In this document: piece by piece, positions 1-26,527 of the stretch | Layout: the number at the start of each line of letters is the position of its first letter | How positions within the stretch are numbered: position 1 is the stretch's first letter | From: Candidatus Lloydbacteria bacterium RIFCSPHIGHO2_02_FULL_50_18 | Lineage (GTDB): Bacteria; Patescibacteriota; Minisyncoccia; Phycocordibacterales; UBA6899 | Direction of reading: 5' to 3' | Length of the DNA: 64,000 nucleotides | NCBI GenBank assembly: GCA_001821395.1 | Contig: MHLM01000012.1 | Coordinates: 32,001-96,000, forward strand | Position numbers and translations under genes: made by a program | Notes under the pieces: generated by a model | Database searches by the model: none | Told to the model about the DNA's origin: nothing | The model's input: only the letters and a program-made list of their open reading frames with translations

Positions 1-47
1 TTGTTTCATATGCAAGCCTGTTTGGAAGTGTTTTGCCCCACTTCCGT

Positions 48-139
48 GGGAGAATCGAAGCCTTTTCCCTTATTTTTGAAGGATTCATATCCTGAAAAAA
101 TGGGAAATGGGCACTGAAACTGTAAGTTTCGATTCTCCC
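48..139. repeat. Structured repeat element, copy 1 (about 92 nt); the second copy is at 3191-3283
   Basis: About 75% identity to 3191-3283 over roughly 90 nt. A terminal inverted repeat GGGAGAATCGAA...TTCGATTCTCCC encloses conserved inner hairpins (GGATTCATATCC; TTCCC/GGGAA). Confidence 0.6.
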
Positions 140-143
140 TACC

Positions 144-312
144 CGCACTAGGAACGAGCGTGATAAAAGGCCCTTCATAGGGCTTTTTATCACCGAGTGA
201 CGACGTGCGGGAGGCTTTGCCTACGCGCACTAGGATGAACAACGAGCGTGATAAAAGGCCCTTCATAGGGCTTTTTATCACCGAGTGACGACGTGCGGGA
301 GGCTTTGCCTAC
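144..312. repeat. Tandem direct repeat, 2 units (81 and 87 bp), each containing the terminator-like hairpin AAAAGGCCCTTCATAGGGCTTTTT
   Basis: The units are near-identical, with a 6-nt insertion in unit 2; they could be aligned directly by eye. Confidence 0.8.
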
Positions 313-496
313 TCAGCAGTCATTTTTGATCAACTTGAGCTTTTGGTGTGCTGCTCACAAAGAATATACGTTTTTTATGAAATACAGGTAAATGCAAAGC
401 ATTTTCTCCTTAAAAAATTAAACGTCGGCAATAAAATATTTTTTCTGAAATTCGTCAATAATTCCTAAAATATGTGATTTTAAGCATTTTTTGAAC

Positions 497-545
497 TTAT
501 CCACACCTGCTGTGCATAAAAACTGTGGATAAGTCTGTGGAAAGT
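497..545. promoter_or_regulatory. DnaA-box cluster: TTATCCACA (497-505), inverted TGTGGATAA (524-532) and degenerate TGTGGAAAG, next to an AT-rich tract (about 366-480)
   Basis: Two perfect consensus DnaA 9-mers in inverted orientation 18 bp apart, with an AT-rich tract just upstream. Confidence 0.4.
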
Positions 546-706
546 GGGTATAAAGGACATTATAATGACTTTTATTATGTCCTTTAGGAATTTGATTGAG
601 GGCGGCGTTGTGCCGTTTCACGGAAAGCAAAGAATTAATGTTACTACGTAACAAATTAAGCAACAGTACAATATATCTGACTTGAATAACGTAAATTGGG
701 TTTCAC

Positions 707-1126
707 ATGAAACTGAATAGTGAGAAACTTGAAAAAATGGGACAAATTACTGAAAAACAGCAAATAGGGAGGACCGGAGAGGATATTGCATGCTTGTTTC
801 TCGTGAAACGTGGCTTTCAAATCGTTGAGCGTAATTTTTGGAAGAAGGTCGGTGAAATAGATATTATTTGCACAAAAGAGGAAAAATTTTACTTTGTTGA
901 AGTAAAAACGATCGTAAAAAGAGGTGTTTCACGTGAAATGAGCGATAATTATCGTCCAGAAGATAATCTGCATGCTCAAAAGATCGTTCGACTTGGAAGA
1001 GCAATTGATATTTACCTTGAAGAGCAAAATATTGATGGTGATTGGGAAATACTTGGGGTCATGATAATTATTGACCCAAAGACTAAGATTGCAAAAGTGT
1101 CGCTTTTGGAAAATTTCGCCTGGTAG
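707..1126 (+). CDS. yraN: UPF0102 / YraN family endonuclease-like protein
   Basis: GEDIA...GF.IVERN...GEIDII...FVEVK motifs typical of the YraN family; the true start may be M11 at 737. Confidence 0.7.
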   Translation: MKLNSEKLEKMGQITEKQQIGRTGEDIACLFLVKRGFQIVERNFWKKVGEIDIICTKEEKFYFVEVKTIVKRGVSREMSDNYRPEDNLHAQKIVRLGRAIDIYLEEQNIDGDWEILGVMIIIDPKTKIAKVSLLENFAW

Positions 1127-1403
1127 TCTTTTCACGTGAAACATAATGAACGAGAAGGATGACGGACCCAGGTCATAAGGTCGTTTTGTCTATTATGGGT
1201 GTTTCACGTGAAATCCTGCCTCAAATCTGTCTTGATCATCGCTTTGTTTTTGCGGTTTTATGTTTAGTGAAAGATAACTACAAAGTATAAATGAGCATAG
1301 CGCTGCTTGGGGATTACTCTTGAATTTTTTATGAGTATAATATGGAAAAGACAATCTTTATGAACAGGTTGCGTAGTTTAAAATTCTATGATATAATATT
1401 TCC

Positions 1404-1688
1404 ATGACTGATTCAAAACGCACCGAGTTGACACTGCATGCGATCGAGATCATTCACGGATCTCGTCTTTCAAGCGACGAGAAGATGATGCTTGAGGGGA
1501 GAATCCCGTTTATCTCTGATTCCATGCTTGAAATGTTTGTGCAGGTTTGCGATGAAGATCCGTTCGGCGTTGATGCAATCGTTAAAAATCTAAAGAAGAA
1601 ACTTGATGCAGGAGGGAATTTAAAACGATTGCATGAGATCGTAAAACAGGAGCGCAGGGAAATCGAAGATTCATTAGTCCTAGGATAA
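1404..1688 (+). CDS. Hypothetical acidic protein (94 aa)
   Basis: Intact ORF preceded by an AT-rich promoter-like region with TATAAT; no recognizable domain. Confidence 0.4.
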   Translation: MTDSKRTELTLHAIEIIHGSRLSSDEKMMLEGRIPFISDSMLEMFVQVCDEDPFGVDAIVKNLKKKLDAGGNLKRLHEIVKQERREIEDSLVLG

Positions 1689-1698
1689 TAAATTTTAT

Positions 1699-2835
1699 AT
1701 GAGCGAGAAAATTCAGCAACAGGCAGAAGACGGAGAGGTGCAGCAAATTTCTTCCTTGACTGACATTGATTCAAGCACTAGGACGACAAGCACCGAGGAA
1801 GGTGATGGCGTTGTCACGGGTGATATCGGTACATCAGAAACGGTTTTTCCGCAGTTTGGTACCGTCGGAGATGTGGGAGAAACCTATGAATTGACGAGTA
1901 ATTTTTCCGAACTCGGTGATCCGATGCAAACTCTGGAACGATCACAACTACTTTGGGATGCACTTGCGCCGGAGGTTGTTGATCGACTCCTCGCAGATTC
2001 TCCGTTTAGCAGCGAGGAATTTTTGGCACTACCTGATGCAGATAAGAATGCCGCGCTTAATATCGTTGAAGATAGCGCAGTCGCTGCTGCCATGGCGCAG
2101 GAAGCCCCATCCGCCCGTGTCGCAGTGGTTTCATCAGAACTTACCCTAGCTGACGATCAGTCGATCGCGGCGAAGTCGATGAGGTGGGGTCGGTCTCTCG
2201 GTGCCGCATTAATAGTGGGGCTTGGCGCAACCCTTGCGCCGGGTGTTGCAAGTGCCGGTGGTCATGATGATAATATTTTCAAGTCATTTGGAGATAGCAT
2301 CGTGCATGGAGTTAAAAGAGATGTGCGTGAGGCGGGGAGAGATAGCGGCGCGGTGTTGGGAGGGGTTGTGCGCATCATCATCGATCGTTCGGTAAATCAG
2401 ACAGCAGTGCAAATACTTGGAGCGGCCGGAGTGCCGGCACAGCAGGCCCCGGAGGAAGTTGTTGTTGTGCCGAGAAGTGTTCCTGGCGCGTATGGCGGCG
2501 GATACGGAGGTCAATACGAAGTACGCGGACGGAGTGCCGGCGAATACGAAGCGCATGGATACGGCGGTCGCGGAATGGAGAGCAGTGAGCGTATTCGCAT
2601 AAAACAGGATATTAACCGTCTCGTGTCACAAGAGAGGGCACTCACAATTCAGGCGGAAAATTCACGGAGAACGGTAATGCAAACTTACGCTCAGTTGAGC
2701 GGGAGCAGAAATGACCTGAGTCTTCGGGCAAGATATGATGCAGAGCGGAGCCAGTACGAATATACCGTGGGAATGATTAGGACTCTCCGGGGTCAGATCG
2801 GCGACCTGAGCGGTAGACTCAGTCAGACGCCATAA
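1699..2835 (+). CDS. Hypothetical acidic protein with a central hydrophobic segment, a GYGG-repeat region and a C-terminal coiled coil (378 aa)
   Basis: Long ORF ending in a terminator hairpin at about 2857-2890; the composition (TM-like GAALIVGLGATLAPGVASAGG, GYGGGYGG repeats) suggests a surface or secreted protein. Confidence 0.5.
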   Translation: MSEKIQQQAEDGEVQQISSLTDIDSSTRTTSTEEGDGVVTGDIGTSETVFPQFGTVGDVGETYELTSNFSELGDPMQTLERSQLLWDALAPEVVDRLLADSPFSSEEFLALPDADKNAALNIVEDSAVAAAMAQEAPSARVAVVSSELTLADDQSIAAKSMRWGRSLGAALIVGLGATLAPGVASAGGHDDNIFKSFGDSIVHGVKRDVREAGRDSGAVLGGVVRIIIDRSVNQTAVQILGAAGVPAQQAPEEVVVVPRSVPGAYGGGYGGQYEVRGRSAGEYEAHGYGGRGMESSERIRIKQDINRLVSQERALTIQAENSRRTVMQTYAQLSGSRNDLSLRARYDAERSQYEYTVGMIRTLRGQIGDLSGRLSQTP

Positions 2836-2856
2836 GGTGTTGATCAGCGTCTGGTG

Positions 2857-2890
2857 AAAAACATCCCATATTCGATGGGGTGTTTTTATT
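2857..2890 (+). terminator. Rho-independent terminator
   Basis: Hairpin AACATCCCAT...ATGGGGTGTT followed by TTTTTATT. Confidence 0.5.
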
Positions 2891-2956
2891 ATCGCAAACG
2901 AGATAGTTGCCCTAATTTGAATTTTAAGCTACTCTTGCGACACGACCGAAGTATAT

Positions 2957-3037
2957 CGGGGCGTGGTGTAATGGCTAACATGTCTGGTTTTCAGGATAGA
3001 GACCAGATGACAAGAGACAGCGTGACGTAGTGAGGAA
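2957..3037 (+). pseudogene. Partial tRNA-Pro copy: the 5' half duplicated with its upstream flank, an altered 15-nt anticodon loop and no T-arm
   Basis: 2948-2990 is near-identical to 3038-3080, but the downstream sequence does not fold into a T-arm or acceptor stem. Confidence 0.6.
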
Positions 3038-3046
3038 GAAGTATAT

Positions 3047-3119
3047 CGGGGCGTGGTGTAACGGCTAACATGTCTGGTTTGGGACCAGATGACTCCGGGT
3101 TCGAATCCCGGCGCCCCGA
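3047..3119 (+). tRNA. tRNA-Pro (anticodon UGG)
   Basis: Manual cloverleaf: 7-bp acceptor CGGGGCG/CGCCCCG, D-arm, anticodon stem TCTGG/CCAGA with loop TTTGGGA, T-arm CCGGG-TTCGAAT-CCCGG, discriminator A, and no encoded CCA. Confidence 0.85.
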
Positions 3120-3163
3120 CTAAATAAAGAAAAGACCTTCAAGGAGGTCTTTTCTTTATTTAG
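3120..3163. other. Perfect 18-bp-stem hairpin (CTAAATAAAGAAAAGACC / GGTCTTTTCTTTATTTAG)
   Basis: Read directly from the sequence immediately downstream of the tRNA. Confidence 0.7.
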
Positions 3164-3190
3164 TCGAAGGCGCGAGGAGCACAGCTCCGA

Positions 3191-3283
3191 GAGGGATTCG
3201 AAGCCCTTCTCCCATATTTATGAAGGATTCTTATCCTGAGTAAATGGGAAAGGGGTACTGACGCAGTAGGCGTCGAAATTCCC
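3191..3283. repeat. Structured repeat element, copy 2, fused to a duplicated 3' end of tRNA-Pro (TTCCCGGCGCCCCGACTAAATAAA at about 3275-3300)
   Basis: Aligns to 48-139. The tRNA 3'-terminal 24 nt is repeated about 160 bp downstream of the intact tRNA. Confidence 0.6.
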
Positions 3284-3412
3284 GGCGCCCCGACTAAATA
3301 AAAAAACTGCCTTTTGGCGGTTTTTTTATTAAATCTTCAAGATTGAAAATCACCTGCGGCGGTAAGGGTAGATCTCAGTTTTCAATGACTGAGAAGGCGT
3401 CATCGATAAAAA

Positions 3413-3430
3413 GTGTTTCACGTGGAACAC
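3413..3430. promoter_or_regulatory. 18-bp near-palindrome GTGTTTCACGTGGAACAC upstream of the che operon
   Basis: Belongs to the TTTCACGTGAAA motif family clustered at 700-1213; lies 50-90 bp upstream of the cheW start. Confidence 0.4.
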
Positions 3431-3476
3431 CTGCGAGCTCGCAATGAATAACTTCTCACGATAGAATGAGTTTCTT

Positions 3477-4058
3477 GTGAAGAATCCCGAATACGAAGAA
3501 GGTGGACATGATGAAAAAAAAGACCTATTCCTTTTTGAGTTGGACGGGGATCTTTACGCTGTACCCGTTGAACTCGTCGATCGAGTAATGAAAATACCTC
3601 CGATCACTCCGATCCCCAATGCGCCGGCGGCAATTGTTGGTATCTTCCACTTGCGCGGAAAGGTCGTTTTGACCCTCGACCTCTCAAGTCGTATGGGTAT
3701 TTCCAGAATGAAGCCCTTAAGTCAAAACTTTCTTTTTGTCGTGCGGTATAAAAATGATCAGTTCGCCATTTTGATCGATACACCTAAGGTCATTGTACAC
3801 ATCCCAGCGAGCGAAATTCATCGTCCCGACTCCATTCTTACGGCCCGATTATCACCGCAATATGTCCAGGGAACCTTCATGTTTCAGGAGGTAACAAAAG
3901 TGAAAGTCCCTAATCATTCGATCTTCATCGAGCATATTGGTGGGGTTGACCGGAGGCCTGAAGAAATTCCACCATCACTTCGACCGGTACTCCTCCTTGA
4001 CCTTGAGCGAGTCCTTGACCAGGAGGATCTTCAGCACATGTTTATTTCACAGGAGTAA
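3477..4058 (+). CDS. cheW: Chemotaxis coupling protein CheW
   Basis: CheW-like domain (FxLRGxVxxVLDL-like motifs); an alternative ATG start at 3509 has a GAAGGTGG ribosome-binding site. Confidence 0.8.
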   Translation: MKNPEYEEGGHDEKKDLFLFELDGDLYAVPVELVDRVMKIPPITPIPNAPAAIVGIFHLRGKVVLTLDLSSRMGISRMKPLSQNFLFVVRYKNDQFAILIDTPKVIVHIPASEIHRPDSILTARLSPQYVQGTFMFQEVTKVKVPNHSIFIEHIGGVDRRPEEIPPSLRPVLLLDLERVLDQEDLQHMFISQE

Positions 4059-4079
4059 AGTCTATGGTACAATTTTAGT

Positions 4080-4442
4080 ATGGCAAAGGATATAAAAATA
4101 CTTCTTGTTGATGACTCAGCTTTTATGCGTAAGGTATTGCGTGACATCTTTGAAAGTGCCGGATATACGAATTTCATAGAGGCGGGAAATGGAACAGAAG
4201 CGATCCAAAAATTCAGAACAGAGAAGCCCGATTTTATCTTTCTTGATATCATCATGCCTGACGTGAACGGTATGGATGTACTTCGTGAGATCGGGAGCGA
4301 AGCGAAGGTCATCGTCGTATCGGCGGTTGGACAAAAGGATGTGATCGAGCAGGCAAAAACACTTGGTGCACTCGATTACATCGTAAAGCCTTTTGATCGT
4401 GATCAGGTGCTCGAAAAGGCCCAGCGGCATTTCGGTCAGTAA
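4080..4442 (+). CDS. cheY: Chemotaxis response regulator CheY
   Basis: Single receiver domain with DD...D...K residues, 120 aa. Confidence 0.85.
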   Translation: MAKDIKILLVDDSAFMRKVLRDIFESAGYTNFIEAGNGTEAIQKFRTEKPDFIFLDIIMPDVNGMDVLREIGSEAKVIVVSAVGQKDVIEQAKTLGALDYIVKPFDRDQVLEKAQRHFGQ

Positions 4443-4456
4443 GTAGCCCGACACGC

Positions 4457-5566
4457 TTGGTCAAATGTTTCATGAATAGTCAACCAACCGAAAAGATCCG
4501 TGTACTTATTGCAGATGATTCTTTTTTTATACGCACCTATCTTCAGGAGGTATTGAAAGCAAGTGAATCGATCGAAGTCGTTGGGCTTGCTTCATCGGGA
4601 ATCGAAGTAGTTGAGTTGGCACGTAAATTAAAACCCCATGTGATCACGATGGATTATCACATGCCGGGAAAAAATGGAATTGAAGCAACCGCAGAGATTA
4701 TGCGTGATGATCACCCGCTTCCGGCAATCATCATGCTTTCTGCTTTCGAGGGGGATGATGGCGAACATGTTCGAAAGACCCTTTTGTCCACCGGTGCCCA
4801 TGTGATCGAAAAACCGTCGGGAGAAGTGTCTCTTGATATAGAAAAGATTGCACGCACTATCGTACAACGGATCGAGGAGGTCGGGTGGACCGAAGTACGC
4901 ATGCGACACTCCTTTGCCCGCATGAAACACACTAGGGAACGAAGCCTAAATGGGCAGGATCGCACACTGCCATTTTCGGGGGTTGTCGTGATCGGTGCGT
5001 CTACCGGTGGGCCATCCTTGGTTGAAGGTTTGATCAAGTCGTTTGATCAGTATCACGGAATTTCGATCGTGATAGTTCAGCACATGTCTGCATATTTTAC
5101 TTCGCTGTTTGCTGAGCGGCTCGGACACGTTACCTCATTCCGTGTTTATGAAGCAAAGAGCGGAGACGTTCTTCTTCCGAACGATGCCCTCGTTGTCCCC
5201 GGTGGTTCTTTTTTGTTACCTACTTCGCTACCGGGTTCCCCGATGTGCAGCTTTGATATTATCGAAAGTGAAACTCATGCACCGGAGGCGCAGATCGACA
5301 ATTCGATGCGCGCGATAGCCGCTTGTTACCAGGGACCAATCGCCGGCGTATTACTTTCCGGAATGGGAAATGACGGAGCCGTCGGACTGCACGCACTGCG
5401 ATTGCGTGGAGGACTTTGTCTTGCGCAGGATCCGGAAACAGCACCGGTGCGTTCTATGCCGGCGCATGCGATTGATAGCGGTGAGGCAGTCGGAGTGCGG
5501 ATAGAGGATATCCCCGAACGTATCATGAGTCATTTTCGTCGACCATCACCGTCACGGCTTGCGTGA
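4457..5566 (+). CDS. cheB: Protein-glutamate methylesterase CheB (receiver plus methylesterase domains)
   Basis: N-terminal receiver domain followed by a CheB methylesterase domain (GASTGGP, HM..F, GG motifs). Confidence 0.85.
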   Translation: MVKCFMNSQPTEKIRVLIADDSFFIRTYLQEVLKASESIEVVGLASSGIEVVELARKLKPHVITMDYHMPGKNGIEATAEIMRDDHPLPAIIMLSAFEGDDGEHVRKTLLSTGAHVIEKPSGEVSLDIEKIARTIVQRIEEVGWTEVRMRHSFARMKHTRERSLNGQDRTLPFSGVVVIGASTGGPSLVEGLIKSFDQYHGISIVIVQHMSAYFTSLFAERLGHVTSFRVYEAKSGDVLLPNDALVVPGGSFLLPTSLPGSPMCSFDIIESETHAPEAQIDNSMRAIAACYQGPIAGVLLSGMGNDGAVGLHALRLRGGLCLAQDPETAPVRSMPAHAIDSGEAVGVRIEDIPERIMSHFRRPSPSRLA

Positions 5567-7250
5567 TATAATCAACCATATGCCGTTGAACATGAATAAG
5601 TATAAGGATCTCTTCTGCGCGGAAGCAGAGGAGCAGCTTGCAATACTCTCTCGTTTATTGCTTGTGCTTGAGAAATCAACAAACCACATGGAATACCATG
5701 AGGAGTTAATGCGCAGCGCACACACCATCAAGGGTGCCGCTGCGACAATGGGGTATGCTTCAATGGCAGAACTTGCTCATGCGGTTGAAGATATTTTTCA
5801 TGCAGCCGAGCGGGGTGCCCTTGTGGTTGATACACGGATCATTACACTATTGCTCTCAGCGATCGACCTCATGACGCATTCACTCGCCTCGATCAAGAGT
5901 AGTGACGTTGAACTTCCCAGTAAGGAAGTTGTTGATAAATTGAAAAAAATTCTTGAAGAAAATGCCGGTGTACAGACCGTTGTTCCGCAAGAAAAAACCG
6001 GTACTGATGTTCAGCAATTGCATATCGTCACTCCGGATACCATCAAGGTTAGTGTCGAAAAACTCGATACATTAATGGGGCTATTTGAGGAAATGTTGAT
6101 GCTCAGACTGAAGGCAAATTCAATGATCGAGCCTGCTGTGGAATTTGTTCGGACGACGACTGACCCTGTATTGAAGCAGCAATTATTCTTCATTGCCGAG
6201 CTCGAGGCATTGTTTGCAGAACTTGCGCGGCTCATGACTGAGCATCAAGACGCTCTTCTTGCTATTCGCCTCGTTCCCCTTGAACAGATCTTCGGCCAGT
6301 TCCCTCGTATGGTGAGGGATCTGTCGGTGCGAGAAGAAAAAGCGATCGAATTTTTTGTTGAAGGTGGAGATATCGCCTTAGACCGTACCGTGATCGAGGG
6401 CCTTGGCGGTGCACTAGCGCATCTTCTTCGCAATGCGGTCGACCACGGGATCGTTTCACGTGGAACAATATCTCTTTCGGCGGTAAGGGAAAAGGGACGC
6501 GTACGGATCTTTGTGGAGGATTCGGGCGCCGGGATCGATTATGGGCGGGTCAAAGAGGTGGCAACGGCTCAAGGGGTAGGCACGAGTGAAGAGATCGCAC
6601 TTATGGGAAACGAACAGCTCGCAGAATTATTGTTTCATCAAAATATGTCGACCAACAAAGTGGTGACGGATATTTCGGGAAGAGGAGTTGGTCTTGCTGC
6701 GGTGCGCGGGTTTGCTGAGGATGTCGGAGGACGCGTTGAAGTCATTTCTCCCATTCCGGAAATAGGGAAGGGGACCCGCTTTGTTCTTGATCTTCCGATC
6801 TCTCTTGCAACAGTGCGCGTGCTCGTCGTGCAAGCACGAGGGTACACATTTGCGATACCTTTCGATCATGTCATTAAAACACTTCACTTTGAAACGCGGG
6901 AGGTCGGTGACGCGGCGCATCAGGAAACACTTTTTCTCGACGGGACATTGTTGCCGCTGATGCATCTCGATAAAATTCTCAAACTATCATACGGTTCCGC
7001 TCCATCTCCGGAACATTCTCGAACCGCGGTGTTGATCCGAACGGGAGAGAAAACATTTCTTCTCGAAGTAGATGCGTGCACGGGTGAACAAGACCTATTG
7101 ATCAAATCGCTTCCTCCGGTTCTCCGTAATAATAAGGGATTTTCAGGCTCAGCGCTTCTCCCGGACGGACGAACAATATTATTACTCGATGGCCATGGTT
7201 TACTCATACAAGCAATAGACGATATACTGAACACCCAATCATTATCTTAA
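5559..7250 (+). CDS. cheA: Chemotaxis histidine kinase CheA
   Basis: Hpt domain (HTIKGAAATMG), HATPase domain (HLLRNAVDHGI, GRGVGL) and a C-terminal CheW-like domain; overlaps the cheB stop by 8 nt. Confidence 0.9.
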   Translation: MRDIINHMPLNMNKYKDLFCAEAEEQLAILSRLLLVLEKSTNHMEYHEELMRSAHTIKGAAATMGYASMAELAHAVEDIFHAAERGALVVDTRIITLLLSAIDLMTHSLASIKSSDVELPSKEVVDKLKKILEENAGVQTVVPQEKTGTDVQQLHIVTPDTIKVSVEKLDTLMGLFEEMLMLRLKANSMIEPAVEFVRTTTDPVLKQQLFFIAELEALFAELARLMTEHQDALLAIRLVPLEQIFGQFPRMVRDLSVREEKAIEFFVEGGDIALDRTVIEGLGGALAHLLRNAVDHGIVSRGTISLSAVREKGRVRIFVEDSGAGIDYGRVKEVATAQGVGTSEEIALMGNEQLAELLFHQNMSTNKVVTDISGRGVGLAAVRGFAEDVGGRVEVISPIPEIGKGTRFVLDLPISLATVRVLVVQARGYTFAIPFDHVIKTLHFETREVGDAAHQETLFLDGTLLPLMHLDKILKLSYGSAPSPEHSRTAVLIRTGEKTFLLEVDACTGEQDLLIKSLPPVLRNNKGFSGSALLPDGRTILLLDGHGLLIQAIDDILNTQSLS

Positions 7251-7255
7251 GTATT

Positions 7256-7921
7256 ATGCCATCACTATTTCAACTCACAGAAAATGATAATGACCAGTTA
7301 CGAGAACTTGTAAATATCGGAGTTTCGCATGCCGGAGACACGTTGTCTTTGATGATGGGGAAACATATCACGGTAAGTATTCCGGGGATATCCGTACAAA
7401 GCGCATCCACTACGCTCTGTTTGCCGCAAGGTGATGAGGATCTCACCGTCTCAGTGTTGCTCCGCGTATACGGGTTAATTAATGGATATGTCTTTTTGTT
7501 TTTTCCGCGCACTGCCGCTCTCCGCTTGCTGCAAGTACTTTCAGGAAAGAGTATCAGCGATGTGCGCGCACTCGATCGATTCGACCGGTCAATATTTCAA
7601 GAACTAGGAAACGTGATCACCGGCGGTACGTTGAACGGACTATCAAAATTTCTCCACATCGAGATGCTTCACTCCGTCCCCAACGTTGTCGTGGATATGA
7701 GTGGTGCAATATTCAATTCCTTATCAGCATCGATGGTGAAGCAGCACGAGGAATTTCTTTCTCTTGATGTTTCGATCTGCATCGATTCTCCATCGAGCTC
7801 TGCTGTGTGTGTTGATAGCGAGGCCTCCGCTGCGCGCATGTATCTTTTTATGGGACCGGATGCCGTGGAGAGGATCCTTGCGATCACCAATGCGATGATC
7901 GGCAAAAAAAATGACCTATGA
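7256..7921 (+). CDS. cheC: CheC-family CheY-P phosphatase
   Basis: Two ExxN-type repeats (ELVNIGVSHAGDTLS; QELGNVITGG) typical of the CheC/FliY/CheX family. Confidence 0.7.
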   Translation: MPSLFQLTENDNDQLRELVNIGVSHAGDTLSLMMGKHITVSIPGISVQSASTTLCLPQGDEDLTVSVLLRVYGLINGYVFLFFPRTAALRLLQVLSGKSISDVRALDRFDRSIFQELGNVITGGTLNGLSKFLHIEMLHSVPNVVVDMSGAIFNSLSASMVKQHEEFLSLDVSICIDSPSSSAVCVDSEASAARMYLFMGPDAVERILAITNAMIGKKNDL

Positions 7922-8406
7922 GCAATACTATCGAAATACGGATTGCTGAGCTTTTTGTTGGTGATCAGTCGAATGTCATCATCACAAAGGGGGTCGGCTC
8001 ATGTATCGTGATCGTCCTCTATGATCGCCTCGTGCGCATCGGAGGGATGGCACATGCGATACTTCCAGAAGCGAGCATCGAGCATGCAGAGGTTGGTGTG
8101 CATGTGGATTTAGGAAAACGATTTGTGAAGTATGCGGATCTTGCAGTGGACACATTGATCGCTGATATGGAGTCATTGGGTGGAACACGGCAGCATCTTG
8201 TCGCAAAATTGATCGGAGGTGCGCATATGTTTGCGTTGCTTGAAGGTGATACGTTTGGTATCGGGTGGGAAAATACAGAAAGTGCACGCGCGCGATTGGT
8301 CCACCATGGAATACCGATTGAAACGGAGGTGGTAGGCGGAACGGTCGGTCGGAATGTACGTCTTGATTGTGCAACAGGCATCGTCGAGATTATCACGAAG
8401 GTTTAA
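7918..8406 (+). CDS. cheD: Chemoreceptor glutamine deamidase CheD
   Basis: GVGSCIVIVLYD and GMAHAILP motifs typical of the CheD family; start codon overlaps the cheC stop. Confidence 0.8.
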   Translation: MSNTIEIRIAELFVGDQSNVIITKGVGSCIVIVLYDRLVRIGGMAHAILPEASIEHAEVGVHVDLGKRFVKYADLAVDTLIADMESLGGTRQHLVAKLIGGAHMFALLEGDTFGIGWENTESARARLVHHGIPIETEVVGGTVGRNVRLDCATGIVEIITKV

Positions 8407-8472
8407 CCTGAAGGTATCCTCAGTCAACTCACGCTTCATTGAATTTTATCTATTTTGCTATACACTGGGCAA

Positions 8473-8994
8473 ATGCTCATCCGTCGTAACCCACTAACCC
8501 TTTTGTCCTTTGTGCTGTTCGTTATTGCTCTCTACTCTGCGGGCATGCTTTCTTCTTCAGCTCGTGTTACACATGAAACAACGATCCCCGAAAACCTTTT
8601 TTCTGTGAAACAGGGTGTTACTCAGGATGGAACGGTGTCTATTTCCGAGGTTTCACGGGTTCCCGCCGTCCCGATCTTTCTAAAGAGTGCGAATCATCCA
8701 CGAACACTGCGAGCATTTGTCGGACCAAGTCAGGGTGACAAAGCATCACTTTTTATAGAGTCGGTACTACCGCGTGGCTATTTTGTTATTTCAGGAGGTT
8801 ATACTGTTTCACAAGATTTCCCGACACTTTTATGGAATAACGCAGTGACACTTCAGTTTTACGGAACAAAAGAGAACAACGAGCAGCTCTACCGTATTCG
8901 TCTTAACGTGCATGCACTTACGGTTGATGCTTTGCCCGTTGATCCGACAGCAACCAGTAGCGATCCGACGGGGTATCGTGTGACGCCGGATTAA
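8473..8994 (+). CDS. Hypothetical membrane-anchored or secreted protein
   Basis: N-terminal signal/TM segment (LLSFVLFVIALYSAG); ORF-track start 8455 is a TTG, and the first ATG is at 8473. Confidence 0.5.
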   Translation: MLIRRNPLTLLSFVLFVIALYSAGMLSSSARVTHETTIPENLFSVKQGVTQDGTVSISEVSRVPAVPIFLKSANHPRTLRAFVGPSQGDKASLFIESVLPRGYFVISGGYTVSQDFPTLLWNNAVTLQFYGTKENNEQLYRIRLNVHALTVDALPVDPTATSSDPTGYRVTPD

Positions 8995-8998
8995 TACT

Positions 8999-9652
8999 AT
9001 GTCCGATATTCACCTTTGTTCCGATGCAGGATCAAAAAAAGCACGCGCGCTGTGCATGCTACGCAATCTGAAACTCCTGTTTCCTGACGCAAAAATGTTT
9101 TTGCAATTCAGCAACAATTGGGAGCTGCTCGTAGCCGTCGAGCTATCAGCACAATGCACCGATAAGAAGGTGAACGAGATCACCCCGGCGTTGTTTCAGA
9201 AGTATCCGACACTTGAGGACTACATTCGCGCCAAGCCAGTCGAGTTCGAACAAATGATCTTTCAGTCAGGATTTTATCGCAATAAGACGAAAAATATTCT
9301 CGCGGCGGCAAAAATAATTCACGATAAATTTGGGGGAAAAATTCCAAAAACAATGACGGAAATGTTATCGATTCCCGGCGTGGCAAGAAAGACCGCCAAT
9401 GTCGTATTGGGAAATGCGTATGGAATTGTGGAGGGTGTTGCTGTTGATACGCACGTGAAACGATTGGCATCTGTACTCGGTCTTTCTTCAGAAAAAGATC
9501 CGAATAAGATCGAGAAAGACCTCATGGCATTATTTCCAAAAAAAGAGTGGTTTTATCTTACCTATCTTTTGATTGAATTTGGTCGCACCTATTGCCCGGC
9601 GCGTAAACATGACCATGATGCATGCCGGGTACTTCTTGGTCTTAAGCATTGA
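8999..9652 (+). CDS. nth: Endonuclease III-like HhH-GPD DNA glycosylase
   Basis: HhH motif LxxIPGVARKTANVVL followed by a catalytic-region GxxxxD, and a Cys-containing C-terminus. Confidence 0.7.
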   Translation: MSDIHLCSDAGSKKARALCMLRNLKLLFPDAKMFLQFSNNWELLVAVELSAQCTDKKVNEITPALFQKYPTLEDYIRAKPVEFEQMIFQSGFYRNKTKNILAAAKIIHDKFGGKIPKTMTEMLSIPGVARKTANVVLGNAYGIVEGVAVDTHVKRLASVLGLSSEKDPNKIEKDLMALFPKKEWFYLTYLLIEFGRTYCPARKHDHDACRVLLGLKH

Positions 9653-9662
9653 GTAATAATAA

Positions 9663-11006
9663 TTATTTTACGAGATTGATGAGGGAAAGCAGTTCAAGCT
9701 TTTTGTCTTCCAGTATCATCGATGTATCACCCTCAATATTTAATCGTACAAGAGGTTCGGTGTTTGATGCGCGGAGAGAAAACCACCAATTGGGATAACT
9801 GATTTTGATACCGTCTAATGTGTCAAGTTTACCATCAGCATATTTTTCTTTCGTGATTGTAAAAAGTGCAGCAGAATTTTTTATTGCGAAATTCAATTCC
9901 CCGGAGTGTGCATAGCGACTGACATGTTGCACGAGTTCAGAAAGTTTTTTTCCTGATGACGCCATTATGTTCATTATGAGGATTGCGGGAAGTGCCCCCA
10001 TTTCTGCCGCATATCCGTTTTCCGTAAAATAATAATGGCCTGAAAGTTCTCCTGCAAATACTGCTCCTGTTTCGCGCATGTGCTTTTTAATATTTGCATG
10101 ACCAACCATGCATTCTTTCGCGATTCCACCTGCGGCTTCGATCTCTTCTTTTACTGTGCGCGATGAGCGAAGATCATAAAGTATTGTTGCACCTGGATGA
10201 CGTCGCAATACTTCCGGTGCAATGATCGCGGTGATGAGGTCCATCGGGACAGGATTTCCAAGTTCGTCGACAAAGCCAACACGGTCGGCATCACCATCAA
10301 ACGCAACTCCCATATCCGCCTTTTTTTCTTTTACTAGAAGAGAGAGTTCCTCGAGTGTTTCTGTGTTGAGAGGATTTGCTTCATGGGGGCACGTACCGGG
10401 AGCTTCTAGTGTGTCGTAAAGTGAGCCTACAATTTCAATATTTTTAATCTGATGAAAAATTGGAAGCTCAAGTACTCCCATTGCGTGAGCAGGGTCAAAT
10501 GCAAGTCGAAAATTCATGTCATGCAGATCCGCGAATGATAATAAAAAACTGTGATAGTCCGCAGTGATGGAGCGAGTCGTCATATTCCCCCTCTCCCCGT
10601 CTTTTTTAAAATTGGACTTCATCATGATGTCGCGAATGTCACTCAGCCCACTGTTGAGACCAAGCGGTATCGCATTTTCTTGACAGATCTTTAGTCCATT
10701 ATATTGACCTGGATTGTGTGATGCGGTAATCATTACGGCTCCATCAACAGAAAGGGTTGCTGATGCAAAATAGAGCATAGGAGTGGACACAAGTCCGAGG
10801 TCGATAATCGTACAGCCCTCATCCATCGCACCCCTGGTGAATGCGTCAAATAAAGAAGGGGAGGAGTCACGATTGTCACGTCCTACCGCAAGTGATTTTG
10901 CTCTTAGTTTTATAACCGTTGCGTGCCCGATTTTCTCGATAATTTCCTCGTTTAATTCTGAAGGATAAACGCCACGAATGTCATAGGATTTAAAGATATT
11001 GGTCAT
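9663..11006 (-). CDS. Phosphomannomutase / phosphoglucomutase
   Basis: YDIRG N-terminus, TASHNP active-site serine loop, and a four-domain PGM/PMM layout. Confidence 0.85.
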   Translation of the reverse strand: MTNIFKSYDIRGVYPSELNEEIIEKIGHATVIKLRAKSLAVGRDNRDSSPSLFDAFTRGAMDEGCTIIDLGLVSTPMLYFASATLSVDGAVMITASHNPGQYNGLKICQENAIPLGLNSGLSDIRDIMMKSNFKKDGERGNMTTRSITADYHSFLLSFADLHDMNFRLAFDPAHAMGVLELPIFHQIKNIEIVGSLYDTLEAPGTCPHEANPLNTETLEELSLLVKEKKADMGVAFDGDADRVGFVDELGNPVPMDLITAIIAPEVLRRHPGATILYDLRSSRTVKEEIEAAGGIAKECMVGHANIKKHMRETGAVFAGELSGHYYFTENGYAAEMGALPAILIMNIMASSGKKLSELVQHVSRYAHSGELNFAIKNSAALFTITKEKYADGKLDTLDGIKISYPNWWFSLRASNTEPLVRLNIEGDTSMILEDKKLELLSLINLVK

Positions 11007-11088
11007 ACAACCATTATATCGTTGTTTGGATATTGTAAAAGTTGTGCTTGTTGTCTCTCTGCCTTCAATCTGCTAGGATGTGCTCATT

Positions 11089-11159
11089 GCGGGATTAGTT
11101 TAGTGGCAAAATAGGAGTTTTCCAAACTCTTGTCGCCGGTTCGATTCCGGCATCCCGCA
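11089..11159 (+). tRNA. tRNA-Gly (anticodon UCC)
   Basis: Manual cloverleaf: acceptor GCGGGAT/ATCCCGC, anticodon stem GGAGT/ACTCT with loop TTTCCAA, T-arm GCCGG-TTCGATT-CCGGC, discriminator A. Confidence 0.8.
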
Positions 11160-11174
11160 CAGAAATGAGATTCA

Positions 11175-11206
11175 AAGAGCGCATTACTGCGCTCTTTGTA
11201 TTTTTG
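11175..11206 (+). terminator. Rho-independent terminator after tRNA-Gly
   Basis: AAAGAGCGCATTACTGCGCTCTTT followed by a T-run. Confidence 0.6.
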
Positions 11207-11467
11207 TGAACCACAGCGATGTTTCGCCAGCGGGTGAAACTGCAGGGTGGGGCCACGAATACTTACATTTTTTGTGCGAGTAGCTATAAAAAATCTAGTG
11301 ATTCGTGATCTGGGATACGAAACACTACCGATAGATGGTTGTTTTGTATGTGCGCGGAAGGCTGCCAGAATGACTTGGTCAGGGCTAAATCGGAAGGTTC
11401 TTCGACAACGACCGACTAATTTTTTCTTGTAACAGTGTTGCACGTATGGCGATGTCGGTTATATAGT

Positions 11468-12004
11468 ATGTTCATGCCAAAAAAAGAAAAGATCGGAAGC
11501 GACGGATATTCTGAGGAAATTTATGACGCTAAGCGTAATGAGCTTGAGGAGCTGGGAATTGCTTATCAGCCCCCGTCTCCGGAGCGAAATTCCGATGAAG
11601 AGTGGAAATCGCTCAACGATGAGGTCTCGCATGAGGCAAAGAAGATCATCGCAACACTCGATCGACTGAGTGCAAACGCAAAACGACTTGCCGAAAAAGA
11701 TGAGTTACATCGTGAATATCTTGGGCTGGTTCCGAGAGTAGAAGAGGCAAGAGAGGAGATCAAAAAAACTCTTGCAGAGGTTTCTGACACCGCCTCATTT
11801 GGGGTGGTGCGCGAGGCGGGGGAAGTACTGCGGATGGGCGATGAGCTTGAGGATGTATTACAAAGTGAATCGCCGGTTCAGCCGCGTTCACTCGTCAGAA
11901 TGCTTATCGAGGAGTTTTTAAATGCAAAAAAATACGTGTTGGGAAAATTGCGAAAGTGGCTCGGTTTGCAGCATCGGTATGGTGATCCGCTGCCTCCCGC
12001 TTGA
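11468..12004 (+). CDS. Hypothetical acidic coiled-coil protein
   Basis: Intact ORF whose first ATG is at 11468; ends just before a terminator. Confidence 0.5.
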   Translation: MFMPKKEKIGSDGYSEEIYDAKRNELEELGIAYQPPSPERNSDEEWKSLNDEVSHEAKKIIATLDRLSANAKRLAEKDELHREYLGLVPRVEEAREEIKKTLAEVSDTASFGVVREAGEVLRMGDELEDVLQSESPVQPRSLVRMLIEEFLNAKKYVLGKLRKWLGLQHRYGDPLPPA

Positions 12005-23944: not shown

Positions 23945-24041
23945 GTTCTGACCCCCCTTATGATGAACGACTTTTTGCATCATACACGCAATTATCGGTG
24001 TTGCAACGGGTAATCCTTGATATAATGAATCAAGCAAATTT

Positions 24042-25793
24042 ATGCTCGTCCAAGAAAGCAAATTAAAGAAATTTATTCTCGATTCCGGGCTCACATCACG
24101 GTCGGAGATCCTTGCCGCCGAGAAAGATGCCGAGAAGGAAGGTGGGAGTATCGGAGATGTATTAGTGAAGCAGGGCAAAATATCCTCTGATGACCTGCGC
24201 CGTGTCCAGGCATATATTCTCGGCATTCCATTTGTGGATCTGCGCGGGCAGAAGATCGATTTTGCCATCCTTTCATTGATCCCCGAGCCGATTGCACGCA
24301 AGCACAATATCGTCGCATTTCGAAAAACGGATTCCGGTCTTGAGGTCGCAATGCTTGACGTTGATGATCTTGAGGCGATCGACTTTGTGCGTAAAAAGGT
24401 GGGGTTACGTATTCTCCCGCGATTGACGGATCAAGAGTCGGTAAAGGGATCATTGCTGCAGTATCAAAAATCTCTGAAGGCGGAGTTTGGTGACCTCATT
24501 CAGCAAGAAGCACAGTCGATACAAATGCTTGCCGAAGATGAAGATAATCCTGCGTCAGAAAAAGATCTGAAGAAACTCGCGGAAGACCTTCCTGTGGTGC
24601 GTATTGTTGATACGCTCTTGAATCATGCCATCATTCAGTCAGCGTCCGACATTCATATTGAACCGATGGAAAATCAATTGCTGGTGCGCTATCGCATCGA
24701 CGGTATTCTTCACGATGCCATGGTGCTTCCACGAAATTCTGCACCGGGTATTACCGCGCGTATCAAGGTGCTTTCGAATTTAAAATTGGATGAAAAGCGG
24801 TTGCCTCAGGACGGACGGTTCAAGATCCAATTGAACAATGAGAAGGTCTCTTTTCGTGTCTCGACGCTTCCGACACATCATGGAGAGAAGACGGTTATGC
24901 GTCTTTTGCGCGAATCATCAGGAGGTTTCTCGCTTGAATCATTGGGTTTTCACGGGCAGGGACTTGAGGCGCTCCATTCGGCGATGAATCAGCACGTCGG
25001 AATGCTGCTCGTGACCGGGCCGACCGGTTCCGGTAAGACAACGACGCTCTATACATTGCTCGATATCCTGAATACTCCCGATGTGAACATCTCCACCATT
25101 GAGGATCCCGTTGAGTATCAGATGCCGCGTATCAATCAGACACAAGTGAAGCCGGAGATCGGCCTCACCTTTGCCATGGGGTTACGCGCACTCCTTCGCC
25201 AGGACCCCGATATCATCATGGTGGGAGAGATCCGCGACGGTGAGACAGCCTCACTTGGAATCAATGCCGCGCTTACGGGACATTTAGTGCTGTCGACCCT
25301 GCATACGAATTCCGCCGCCGGAACATTACCGCGTTTCATTGATATGGGCGCAGAGCCGTTCCTCATCATCTCAACGGTGAACGTCATCATCGGACAACGG
25401 CTCGTACGTAAGTTGTGCGCCACGAAAGAGAAATATAATCTCTCAAAGGCGGAGCTTGATGCATTAGGGAAAAAGGCAAACCTCGATATCGTCCTCGCTT
25501 CACTCAAGGAGGAGGGGATAGTAGCAAAAGATATAGCGTGGGCGGATGTCCCGTTTTATAAAGCGAAACCTTCCCCTGAATGTGATGAGGGCTATAAGGG
25601 GCGTCTGAGTATTCATGAAGTGCTACACATGTCGTCGGGGATCCGTGAACTTGCCGTCGCAAGTGCATCTGCAGAAAAGATCGAGATACAGGCGCGCAAA
25701 GAAGGGATGCTGACGATGCTTGAAGACGGGATATTCAAGGCAGCCCAAGGACTCACGTCCATCGAAGAAGTCTATAGAGTAGTCAGCGAGTGA
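24042..25793 (+). CDS. pilB: Type IV pilus assembly ATPase PilB (GspE family)
   Basis: GSPII_E N-terminal domain, Walker A GPTGSGKTTT, and Asp and His boxes. Confidence 0.9.
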   Translation: MLVQESKLKKFILDSGLTSRSEILAAEKDAEKEGGSIGDVLVKQGKISSDDLRRVQAYILGIPFVDLRGQKIDFAILSLIPEPIARKHNIVAFRKTDSGLEVAMLDVDDLEAIDFVRKKVGLRILPRLTDQESVKGSLLQYQKSLKAEFGDLIQQEAQSIQMLAEDEDNPASEKDLKKLAEDLPVVRIVDTLLNHAIIQSASDIHIEPMENQLLVRYRIDGILHDAMVLPRNSAPGITARIKVLSNLKLDEKRLPQDGRFKIQLNNEKVSFRVSTLPTHHGEKTVMRLLRESSGGFSLESLGFHGQGLEALHSAMNQHVGMLLVTGPTGSGKTTTLYTLLDILNTPDVNISTIEDPVEYQMPRINQTQVKPEIGLTFAMGLRALLRQDPDIIMVGEIRDGETASLGINAALTGHLVLSTLHTNSAAGTLPRFIDMGAEPFLIISTVNVIIGQRLVRKLCATKEKYNLSKAELDALGKKANLDIVLASLKEEGIVAKDIAWADVPFYKAKPSPECDEGYKGRLSIHEVLHMSSGIRELAVASASAEKIEIQARKEGMLTMLEDGIFKAAQGLTSIEEVYRVVSE

Positions 25794-26069
25794 CGGGCAT
25801 TCTCGCGGATTATTTCGTTGAAAGCTTGCGAGGCTCATTCACCGTACTCAGAAGTACGCCTCATATCGCTTCGCGCTTTCGCCTCGTACTCCATCGAGAA
25901 TACCAATCACTCTATTCGGCTAAATCTGGCGTCTATATTTGTTAGCGGCCCACTGCCCGTCCTTCCTAGCTTTCGTTTCGCATCAAGATCATTCACTCAC
26001 TCGGGAACAGCGAATGAATGATTTTGCGTTTTATTTGTGAAAAGAGTAGAACTACAAAGGAACAATTGA

Positions 26070-26375
26070 ATGAAATTTCACATGAAACTTATTCGTGACA
26101 AGATACCCGGCATCGCTCATGCAAAGGGTGAACAGCTGCAGTGCCATAAGGCGGATCCCGCAGAATATCGCTATCATCTTCGAGAAAAGATTCTTGAAGA
26201 GGTTCATGAATTTCGTGAGTCTGGAGAGGCAGAGGAATTAGCTGATATTCTGGAGGTTGTACGGGCGATAGCAAATGAGCGCGGTTTATCGATGCGCAAT
26301 CTTTATCTCCTTCGTGATAAAAAGCGCCGAGCACGGGGAGGATTTGACGGACGGATCATTTGGCAAAATGAGTAG
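26070..26375 (+). CDS. MazG-like nucleotide pyrophosphohydrolase (PRA-PH-like small protein)
   Basis: KLIRDKIP N-terminus and EELADILEV motif typical of small all-alpha NTP pyrophosphohydrolases. Confidence 0.55.
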   Translation: MKFHMKLIRDKIPGIAHAKGEQLQCHKADPAEYRYHLREKILEEVHEFRESGEAEELADILEVVRAIANERGLSMRNLYLLRDKKRRARGGFDGRIIWQNE

Positions 26376-26527
26376 ATCGAGCAAGTCGGCTTGTAGGATC
26401 GGACATCGTGTCCGGTCTTTTGTTATTGCCCATGAGAATGCCATGAGTTTCGGTCACGACCATGCGCGAGTAAGGAGTGTGGAAAAGCGTGTCACGCAGA
26501 CTATTTTCCTATATAATAAAATGAACT

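What the first reader, a model, noticed from the sequence alone, without database searches (positions are those of the whole stretch)
700..1213. Cluster of the 12-bp palindrome TTTCACGTGAAA around yraN, with related sites upstream of the che operon and inside cheA
Three perfect copies (927-938, 1130-1141, 1202-1213) and one single-mismatch copy overlapping the yraN start codon (GTTTCACATGAAAC, 700-713) occur within 500 bp. Extended near-palindromes of the same motif, GTTTCACGTGGAACA, occur at 3413-3430 (50-90 bp upstream of cheW) and at 6452-6469. A specific 12-mer is expected about 0.004 times in 64 kb, so this is a genuine motif, most likely the operator of a dimeric regulator with a CACGTG core.
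Basis: seen in the sequence. Interest (0 to 1): 0.5.

Follow-up and report, generated by a model that had tools for sequence, protein, structure and literature searches.

The report
Chromosome centromere (parS) sites beside origin
The repeated palindrome is the well-known bacterial centromere site parS, where the ParB protein loads to segregate the chromosome; it sits here next to the probable replication origin of an uncultured Parcubacteria (candidate phyla radiation) bacterium, so it is an ordinary element in an unstudied lineage.

Summary
There are three perfect TTTCACGTGAAA copies (0.02 expected), and they belong to a family of eight 14-16-bp copies at 699, 795, 925, 1128, 1200, 3414, 6452 and 8565. 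The interpretation needs correcting. The motif is the core of the chromosomal parS consensus TGTTNCACGTGAAACA. Seven sites match the 16-mer with at most 2 mismatches (0 expected). Site 3414-3429 is, on the other strand, the optimal B. subtilis parS. All eight sites lie in the first 8.6 kb of the 64-kb window. They sit beside a DnaA-box cluster (497-545), a 24%-GC stretch, a gene-orientation switch and the turning point of the GC skew, which together mark the probable oriC. In about 100 loci from related Parcubacteria the same sites cluster on yraN, 70-130 times denser within 0.5 kb than beyond 3 kb. One lineage has yraN-dnaA-dnaN. The che-linked sites are not conserved in the closest syntenic relative, which argues against a che operator. 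The main gap is that no ParB or ParA gene was found in the roughly 83 kb I could read from this organism. The one new detail is that yraN carries parS sites in its coding sequence, read as Val-Ser-x-Glu-Thr, with codon choice fixed at the DNA level.

The parts
699..714 (.). Degenerate parS-like site GGTTTCACATGAAACT (3 mismatches to the 16-mer) that overlaps the yraN start codon
   Evidence: Relatives carry a parS 36-142 bp upstream of the aligned start of yraN.
795..810 (.). Weak parS-like site TGTTTCTCGTGAAACG inside yraN, with an A-to-T change at core position 7. It encodes the conserved YraN peptide F-L-V-K, so it may partly be a by-product of coding.
   Evidence: The same FLVK-encoding variant is found in L016 and L028.
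925..940 (.). parS site TGTTTCACGTGAAATG inside yraN (perfect 12-bp core), read as V-S-R-E
   Evidence: The position is conserved in yraN of relatives. Codon bias shows selection at the DNA level.
1128..1143 (.). parS site CTTTTCACGTGAAACA, 2 bp after the yraN stop codon
   Evidence: L008 has a site just downstream of yraN.
1200..1215 (.). parS site TGTTTCACGTGAAATC in the 277-bp, 35%-GC spacer after yraN
3414..3429 (.). Best parS site, TGTTTCACGTGGAACA (1 mismatch). Its reverse complement is TGTTCCACGTGAAACA. It lies 47 bp upstream of the first possible cheW start.
   Evidence: It is identical to the optimal B. subtilis parS (PMC8299390). It is not conserved in L008.
6452..6467 (.). parS site CGTTTCACGTGGAACA inside cheA, read as I-V-S-R-G-T
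   Evidence: It is absent at the homologous codons of L008 cheA.
8565..8580 (.). parS-like site TGTTACACATGAAACA (2 mismatches) inside ORF 8455-8994
   Evidence: L008 has TGTTTCACCTGAAACA at the equivalent distance from yraN, +7.9 kb.
497..545 (.). DnaA-box cluster: TTATCCACA (497, + strand), TTATGCACA (511, - strand), TTATCCACA (524, - strand), and a 2-mismatch box at 537-545. This is the probable DnaA-binding part of oriC.
   Evidence: A perfect box 150-280 bp upstream of yraN, often with a second box about 21 bp away, is conserved in most relatives.
360..496 (.). AT-rich stretch (24% GC against 48.8% for the window), a candidate DNA-unwinding element
707..1126 (+). yraN (UPF0102 family), the gene that carries or is flanked by the core parS cluster
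   Evidence: PF02021 hit. Homologues in relatives carry parS sites.

Best explanation
The palindromes are chromosomal parS sites, the centromere-like loading sites of the ParB (Spo0J) partition protein. By analogy with characterised ParABS systems (inferred, not tested here), a ParB dimer recognises each 16-bp palindrome through its helix-turn-helix domain. It then binds CTP, closes into a clamp and slides onto flanking DNA. The resulting partition complex covers the origin-proximal region, which here would include yraN, tRNA-Pro and the che operon. ParA then moves that complex apart after replication, and SMC is loaded from it. Five sites within 520 bp around yraN form the core centromere, about 170 bp from the DnaA boxes of the probable oriC. 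Three more sites lie 2.7, 5.7 and 7.9 kb downstream. What is shown: the sequence identity to parS, the statistical excess, the origin-proximal clustering, the conservation across relatives, and DNA-level selection on the sites inside yraN. What is inferred: ParB binding and the whole downstream mechanism.
For: 1. Seven matches to TGTTTCACGTGAAACA with at most 2 mismatches, against 0 in shuffles. An eighth copy has 3 mismatches.
2. The published chromosomal parS consensus is TGTTNCACGTGAAACA, found in Firmicutes, Actinobacteria, Proteobacteria and others, with most sites in the ori domain (PMC7022226). Site 3414-3429 equals the optimal B. subtilis parS on the other strand (PMC8299390).
3. All eight sites lie in window 699-8580. 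There are none in the remaining 55 kb, the 9.4 kb upstream or the 9.5 kb downstream.
4. Origin signature next to the cluster: three DnaA boxes within 36 bp; a 24%-GC stretch; upstream genes mostly on the - strand and downstream genes on the + strand; a cumulative G-C minimum between -6.4 and -0.4 kb followed by a steady rise to +72 kb.
5. In 22 GTDB relatives there are 50 sites in 317 kb. Density is 1.35 per kb within 0.5 kb of yraN, against 0.01-0.02 per kb beyond 3 kb (chance 0.0003 per kb). In 80 metagenome relatives there are 62 sites in 1.13 Mb, mostly within a few kb of yraN where that gene is on the locus.
6. The gene order is yraN-dnaA-dnaN in L023 and L013.
7. Val-Ser-x-Glu-Thr motifs in YraN use GTT in 21 of 21 cases, TCA in 16 of 21 and GAA in 20 of 21. 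Elsewhere in the same genes these codons account for 40%, 18% and 68%. The DNA arms GTTTCA/GAAAC are therefore what is conserved.
Against: No ParB or ParA gene was found in the roughly 83 kb readable for this organism. This covers a GERR motif scan, tblastn with the PDB-verified Spo0J and M. xanthus ParB sequences, and the Pfam tables. Almost none was found in 1.6 Mb of relatives' origin-proximal loci. The exception is an orphan ParB-family protein in L042 that passes TIGR00180 (61.7 bits against a 58.45 cut-off) but has no other relative in the 5.8-billion-protein index. The rest of the genome could not be read. None of the eight sites is a perfect 16-mer. Site 795 has a core mismatch and could be a coding by-product. 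The oriC assignment is inferred: dnaA is not next to yraN in this organism, and a second DnaA-box cluster lies at 49936-50003. No binding data exist.
Confidence: 0.9

Rival explanations
1. This is the first reader's reading: the sites are operators of a dedicated dimeric transcription factor that controls yraN and the che operon.
For: One copy overlaps the yraN start codon (700-713) and one lies 47 bp upstream of the first possible cheW start. Palindromes with a CACGTG core are typical of dimeric binders.
Against: Four or five of the eight copies are inside coding sequence. The 16-bp sequence is the universal parS. The cheW-upstream and cheA sites are missing in the syntenic relative L008, while the yraN cluster is kept. 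In relatives the motif follows yraN and the DnaA boxes, whatever the downstream genes are. The consensus scan found no promoter-like site near 3414.
Confidence: 0.03
2. The sites are parS with a second job. ParB bound at 699-714 and 3414-3429 would also dampen transcription of yraN and the che operon, as reported near some parS sites in Pseudomonas aeruginosa and Streptococcus pneumoniae.
For: These sites sit at the yraN start and in the cheW leader. Abstracts report ParB repressing promoters next to parS3 and parS4 in P. aeruginosa when ParB is in excess (PMC5521831), and the ParB-parS system modulating competence development in S. pneumoniae (PMC4488948).
Against: The che-linked site is not conserved in L008. 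At native levels B. subtilis Spo0J does not silence genes next to parS (PMC7333895). Nothing here tests expression.
Confidence: 0.15
3. There is no dedicated function. The copies would be a by-product of coding constraints (V-S-R-E-T and F-L-V-K peptides) or remnants of a small dispersed repeat.
For: Sites 795, 925 and 6452 lie in frame as FLVK or VSRE/VSRG. The FLVK peptide is conserved in YraN.
Against: Three copies (1128, 1200, 3414) are intergenic. Copies share no more than 17 nt. Codon choice inside VS.ET motifs is far from the genes' own usage, with GTT in 21 of 21 cases against 40% elsewhere. The observed excess over chance is several thousand-fold.
Confidence: 0.01
4. The sites are origin-associated but are read by a protein other than canonical ParB, for example a ParB paralogue such as Noc, or a lineage-specific origin-binding factor.
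For: No canonical ParB was seen in the origin-proximal DNA of this organism or its relatives. Many relatives' sites keep the arms GTTTCA/GAAAC but vary in the central 3-4 bp.
Against: The consensus over 50 relatives' sites is TGTTTCACGTGAAACA at every position. That is parS, not the Noc site ATTTCCCGGGAAAT (as I recall it). ParB genes are often not next to parS. Only a small part of each genome could be read.
Confidence: 0.05

Closest known systems
Bacillus subtilis parS / Spo0J (ParB) centromere sites
   Same: The 16-bp palindrome is the same, and 3414-3429 read on the other strand is the optimal B. subtilis site TGTTCCACGTGAAACA. There are several copies (B. subtilis has 10, of which 8 are in the ori domain). 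Several are inside genes, and they are origin-proximal.
   Different: Here at least five copies are packed into 520 bp, within about 200 bp of the DnaA boxes. B. subtilis sites are spread over a much larger ori domain (from my own knowledge). No ParB or ParA gene was seen near the origin here, whereas soj-spo0J is origin-proximal in B. subtilis (from my own knowledge).
Caulobacter crescentus and Myxococcus xanthus parS clusters
   Same: Multiple closely spaced parS sites form one centromere near the origin (5 of 5 and 22 of 22 in the ori domain). The M. xanthus consensus TGTTCCACGTGGAACG shows the same T/C and A/G variation seen at 3414 and 6452.
   Different: In those species the cluster lies beside the parAB operon (from my own knowledge). 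Here it is centred on yraN, and parAB was not found nearby.
Pseudomonas aeruginosa parS and half-parS sites
   Same: Full sites near oriC are accompanied by extra heptamer half-sites. Here 14 of 21 GTTTCAC heptamers fall in the first 11.3 kb of the window.
   Different: In P. aeruginosa, half-sites are bound genome-wide and ParB affects transcription (abstracts). Nothing of that kind was tested here.
Noc-binding site (NBS) of Firmicutes
   Same: It is a 14-16-bp palindrome read by a ParB-family protein, with related arms (ATTTC...GAAAT).
   Different: The NBS core is CCCGGG rather than CACGTG (from my own knowledge), and NBS sites are spread over the chromosome and are scarce near the terminus. 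The sites here have the parS core and cluster near the origin.

Membership tests
Chromosomal parS (ParABS centromere site) | A 16-bp palindrome that matches TGTTNCACGTGAAACA | tested here: met
   Seven sites have at most 2 mismatches and one has 3. The consensus comes from PMC7022226. One site is identical to the optimal B. subtilis parS.
Chromosomal parS (ParABS centromere site) | The copies are far more frequent than chance and are concentrated in the origin-proximal region | tested here: met
   Shuffles give 0 expected against 7 found. All sites lie within 8.6 kb of a DnaA-box cluster, an AT-rich stretch, the GC-skew turn and the gene-orientation switch. There are none in the other roughly 74 kb read. 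The oriC itself is inferred, not proven.
Chromosomal parS (ParABS centromere site) | The sites are conserved at the same locus in related genomes | tested here: met
   18 of 22 GTDB relatives have at least 1 site within 1.5 kb of yraN, and 14 of 22 have at least 2. More examples are, such as L038 with 6 sites in 650 bp.
Chromosomal parS (ParABS centromere site) | A cognate ParB (GERRxRA box, HTH; PF02195/TIGR00180) is encoded in the same genome | tested here: inconclusive
   None was found in the roughly 83 kb accessible for this organism. The rest of the genome could not be read. One relative (L042) encodes a ParB-family protein that passes TIGR00180, but it is an orphan.
Chromosomal parS (ParABS centromere site) | A partner ParA (Soj) ATPase is present | tested here: inconclusive
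There was one ParA-like hit in relative L070. Some ParB-parS systems lack ParA, for example S. pneumoniae.
Chromosomal parS (ParABS centromere site) | ParB binds the sites and spreads from them (ChIP-seq, EMSA, CTP-dependent clamping) | not testable with these tools
   This needs an experiment.
   Four or five of the eight sites are intragenic. The cheW-upstream and cheA sites are absent in syntenic L008. No promoter-like match lies near 3414.
Noc-binding site | The palindrome has a CCCGGG core (ATTTCCCGGGAAAT, recalled from memory) | tested here: not met
   The core in the window sites is CACGTG, with CACATG at 699 and 8565 and CTCGTG at 795. Among 50 relatives' sites, position 7 is A in 40 and position 10 is T in 45.
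Dispersed repeat or MITE | The copies share extended flanking similarity beyond the motif | tested here: not met
   The longest shared stretch is 17 nt, GGTGTTTCACGTGAAAT, at 923 and 1198.

The most novel reading that the evidence does not exclude
In this Parcubacteria lineage the centromere is built into, and around, one small gene, yraN. That gene lies directly beside the DnaA boxes of oriC, and parS sites are kept in its variable loops as Val-Ser-x-Glu-Thr codons by selection on the DNA. It also does not exclude a functional coupling between yraN (a predicted nuclease-fold protein) and the centromere.
Probability: 0.07. Interest if true: 0.6.

Novelty: new member of a known kind. Interest (0 to 1): 0.17.

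Why it matters
As a finding it is ordinary. parS has been known since 1998 (from my own knowledge), and its consensus is nearly universal. It has three practical uses here.

1. It marks, together with the DnaA boxes, the probable replication origin and centromere of an uncultured candidate-phyla-radiation genome. That helps MAG orientation, skew-based completeness checks and growth-rate estimates from coverage.

2. It shows that the canonical ParB recognition sequence is conserved unchanged in Parcubacteria. My full-text searches found no paper addressing parS or ParB in this group.

3. The conserved placement of parS inside yraN coding sequence is a clean example of a DNA-level signal overriding synonymous codon choice.

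Tried and rejected
1. DnaA boxes. I first asked whether the half-palindrome could be a variant DnaA box. CGTGAAACA differs from the relaxed box TGTGNAWAA at 2 positions. I dropped this once the full 16-mer matched parS and true DnaA boxes were found separately at 497-545.

2. The hunt for ParB and ParA.
- Six-frame GERR, ENxQR and Walker motif scans.
- tblastn with Spo0J, whose residues 21-218 are verified identical to PDB 6SDK, with M. xanthus ParB, and with Soj from memory.
- Pfam on ten window ORFs.
- The gene tables of four contig look-ups (two further look-ups found no record, and one search likewise).
- None of these found a ParB or ParA in this organism.
- A metagenome scan with the neighbouring PNPase gave 80 relatives' loci, but not the organism's own longer contig.
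- The only ParB-family hit (L042) was used as a query against the 5.8-billion-protein index and returned only itself. It could not lead me to this organism's ParB.

3. Contig walking. I considered walking the contig further upstream by unlocking PNPase through a homologue search. I rejected this because close relatives (L032 and L038, 84-85% PNPase identity) already show no ParB in the 10 kb beyond pnp.

4. Rfam on window 1-12000 found only the two tRNAs.

5. The consensus promoter scan gave nothing useful near the che-proximal site.

6. Livny et al. 2007 (PMC2168934) is not held in the library, so I cite reviews instead.

Full report
OBSERVATION

- TTTCACGTGAAA occurs exactly three times, at 927, 1130 and 1202. 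Shuffles give 0.02, and none of 100 reached 3.
- GTTTCACATGAAAC at 700-713 overlaps the ATG (707) of a 139-aa ORF that hits Pfam UPF0102/YraN.
- The extended near-palindromes at 3413-3430 and 6452-6467 are present. The first lies 47 bp before the first possible cheW start. The second is inside cheA.
- Two further copies were missed, at 795-810 and 8565-8580.
- A repeat finder groups all eight into one 14-nt family. No two copies share more than 17 nt, so this is a short motif and not a piece of a larger repeat.

WHAT IT IS

TTTCACGTGAAA is the core of the chromosomal parS site.
- With the 16-mer TGTTTCACGTGAAACA and at most 2 mismatches there are 7 matches, against 0.00 expected. All lie between 795 and 8580. 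Site 699-714 has 3 mismatches.
- A review gives TGTTNCACGTGAAACA as the conserved chromosomal parS of most bacteria. It lists B. subtilis (10 sites, 8 in the ori domain), C. glutamicum, C. crescentus, M. xanthus (TGTTCCACGTGGAACG) and others (PMC7022226).
- The reverse complement of window 3414-3429 is TGTTCCACGTGAAACA. Balaguer et al. call this the optimal B. subtilis parS (PMC8299390).

WHERE IT SITS

The organism is an uncultured member of Patescibacteria/Parcubacteria. The nearest GTDB genomes are Candidatus Yonathbacteria, Paceibacterota and related MAGs, with YraN 38-50% identical. Identical genes occur in groundwater-type metagenome assemblies.

Several features point to an origin of replication about 170 bp upstream of the first parS copy.
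- Three DnaA boxes lie within 36 bp: TTATCCACA at 497 and 524, and a one-mismatch box at 511. A weaker fourth box follows.
- A 137-bp stretch of 24% GC precedes them, against 48.8% for the whole window.
- Genes upstream are mostly on the minus strand, and genes downstream on the plus strand.
- In a composite of the contig from -9.4 to +73 kb, the cumulative G-C count reaches its minimum between -6.4 and -0.4 kb. It then climbs almost without interruption to +72 kb.
- A second DnaA-box cluster at 49936-50003 does not coincide with any skew turn.

No parS-like site (at most 2 mismatches) occurs in the other 55 kb of the window, in the 9.4 kb upstream, or in the 9.5 kb downstream. Multiple parS copies confined to the origin-proximal region is the expected distribution. 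I rate the oriC assignment at about 0.7. It is inferred, and dnaA is not adjacent in this organism.

RELATIVES

- In 22 loci from GTDB genomes that carry a YraN homologue there are 50 parS-like sites in 317 kb. Chance would give about 0.08.
- Density is 1.35 per kb within 0.5 kb of the centre of yraN. It is 0.31 per kb at 0.5-1.5 kb, and 0.01-0.02 per kb beyond 3 kb.
- The position-by-position consensus of these 50 sites is TGTTTCACGTGAAACA. The sites were selected for at most 2 mismatches to that sequence, so this is not independent evidence.
- Most loci also have a perfect DnaA box 150-280 bp upstream of yraN, often with a second box about 21 bp away.
- In one lineage (L023 Candidatus Yonathbacteria, and the closely related L013) the gene order is yraN-dnaA-dnaN, confirmed by Pfam.
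- A further 80 loci found through the neighbouring pnp gene hold 62 sites in 1.13 Mb. These lie mostly within a few kb of yraN where that gene is present. L038 has six sites in 650 bp and L094 has six in 1.2 kb.
- The yraN/DnaA-box/parS module is therefore a conserved feature of this clade.

THE CHE SITES

The closest syntenic relative, L008, has the order yraN, p94, cheW and cheA.
- It keeps the yraN cluster: seven sites with at most 4 mismatches between 9870 and 10506.
- It also keeps a site at the same distance as window 8565.
- It has nothing upstream of cheW.
- At the cheA position it has different codons, GIVKSGT instead of GIVSRGT.

The link to che is therefore lineage-specific, which argues against a che operator. 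A side effect of ParB binding on yraN or che transcription cannot be excluded. Such effects are reported in P. aeruginosa and S. pneumoniae (abstracts). However, B. subtilis Spo0J at native levels does not silence genes next to parS (PMC7333895).

A SMALL NEW POINT

Inside yraN the parS is read in frame as Val-Ser-Arg-Glu-Thr (GTT TCA CGT GAA ACA).
- Across 38 yraN homologues I ascertained the peptide pattern VS.ET at the protein level only, and found 21 instances. Some genes carry two or three, in variable-length loops.
- Their codons are GTT in 21 of 21 cases, TCA in 16 of 21 and GAA in 20 of 21. For the same amino acids elsewhere in these genes the figures are 40%, 18% and 68%.
- The DNA arms GTTTCA and GAAAC are therefore selected as such. 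The centre of the palindrome is more variable in some relatives.
- The site at 795 encodes the conserved peptide FLVK and has a core mismatch. I treat it as doubtful.

THE GAP

I could not find the reader protein.
- There is no ParB or ParA in the window or in the flanking contig pieces. The Spo0J query was checked against PDB 6SDK, where residues 21-218 are identical.
- In 1.6 Mb of relatives' loci only one ParB-family ORF appeared, in L042. It passes TIGR00180 with 61.7 bits against a 58.45 cut-off, and carries PF02195 and PF17762.
- That ORF found only itself in the 5.8-billion-protein index, so it looks like an orphan, possibly from a mobile element.
- All this DNA is origin-proximal. It shows only that parAB is not close to oriC in this clade. 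The rest of the genome was out of reach with the tools' caps.
- I found no paper dealing with parS or ParB in the candidate phyla radiation.

VERDICT

- This is a canonical, already well-understood element (parS) in a lineage where it had not been pointed out.
- Confidence that these are parS sites is about 0.9.
It is wrong in kind: the site is a centromere, not an operator.
- Interest is low.

Noticed in passing
window 45-145 and 3188-3292; L001 8768-8872 (minus strand); L008 12532-12636: A conserved element of about 95 nt follows tRNA-Gly(GCC), tRNA-Pro(UGG) and tRNA-Arg(UCG). It starts with the reverse complement of that tRNA's T-arm. It has a conserved core (...GAAGCCCTTCTCCCAT...ATGGGAAAGGGGTACTG...) and ends in a direct copy of the tRNA's 3' end. 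RNAalifold on 4 copies gives a three-way junction in which 10 of 33 pairs are kept through changes on both sides. There is no Rfam match. It is absent after tRNA-Gly(UCC) at 11089. It may be a structured RNA co-transcribed with tRNAs, or a scar of an element that targets tRNA genes.
   Followed up: partly
window 153-312: Two perfect tandem copies (72 nt identical, 88-nt period), each with a terminator-like hairpin. The metagenome contig L001 is about 90 bp shorter between the window start and yraN, which fits a single copy, so copy number probably varies between strains.
   Followed up: partly
window 2948-2990 versus 3038-3080: The 5' half of tRNA-Pro plus 9 upstream bases is duplicated 90 bp upstream of the intact tRNA-Pro gene at 3047-3120 (98% identical). 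The tRNA 3' end plus a terminator is duplicated again at 3280-3330. This suggests past insertion or recombination at this tRNA.
   Followed up: no
window 49936-50003: A second cluster of four DnaA-box-like 9-mers (TGTGGATAG, TTATACACA twice, TTTTCCACA) lies between two minus-strand genes, a histidine phosphatase and prs. It does not sit at a GC-skew turn. It may be a DnaA titration or regulatory site.
   Followed up: partly
L023 10004-13608 (and L013): In Candidatus Yonathbacteria RIFCSPLOWO2_01_FULL_43_27 the gene order is yraN-dnaA-dnaN, with DnaA boxes on both sides of yraN. In the window organism and in all the other relatives' loci held, dnaA is not within 10 kb of yraN.
   Followed up: yes
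L042 about 1000-2012 (protein P0001): A ParB-family protein (GERRVRA box; PF02195 and PF17762; passes TIGR00180) lies about 4 kb from pnp in one relative. In the 5.8-billion-protein index it matches only itself.
   Followed up: partly
window 3477-8406 and about 24000-28000: This is a compact che operon: CheW, a CheY-like response regulator, CheB, CheA, CheC/CheX and CheD. Type IV pilus or type II secretion genes (T2SSE/MshEN, T2SSF) lie about 20 kb away. No flagellar gene, MCP or CheR appeared in the Pfam-annotated parts. This hints at chemosensory control of pili in a Parcubacteria genome.
   Followed up: no
window 1404-1688 and 1699-2835: Two genes with no Pfam family lie directly downstream of the parS cluster, of 94 aa and 378 aa. 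The 378-aa protein has Gly/Tyr-rich repeats. The 94-aa protein is 63% identical in L008 at the same position.
   Followed up: no
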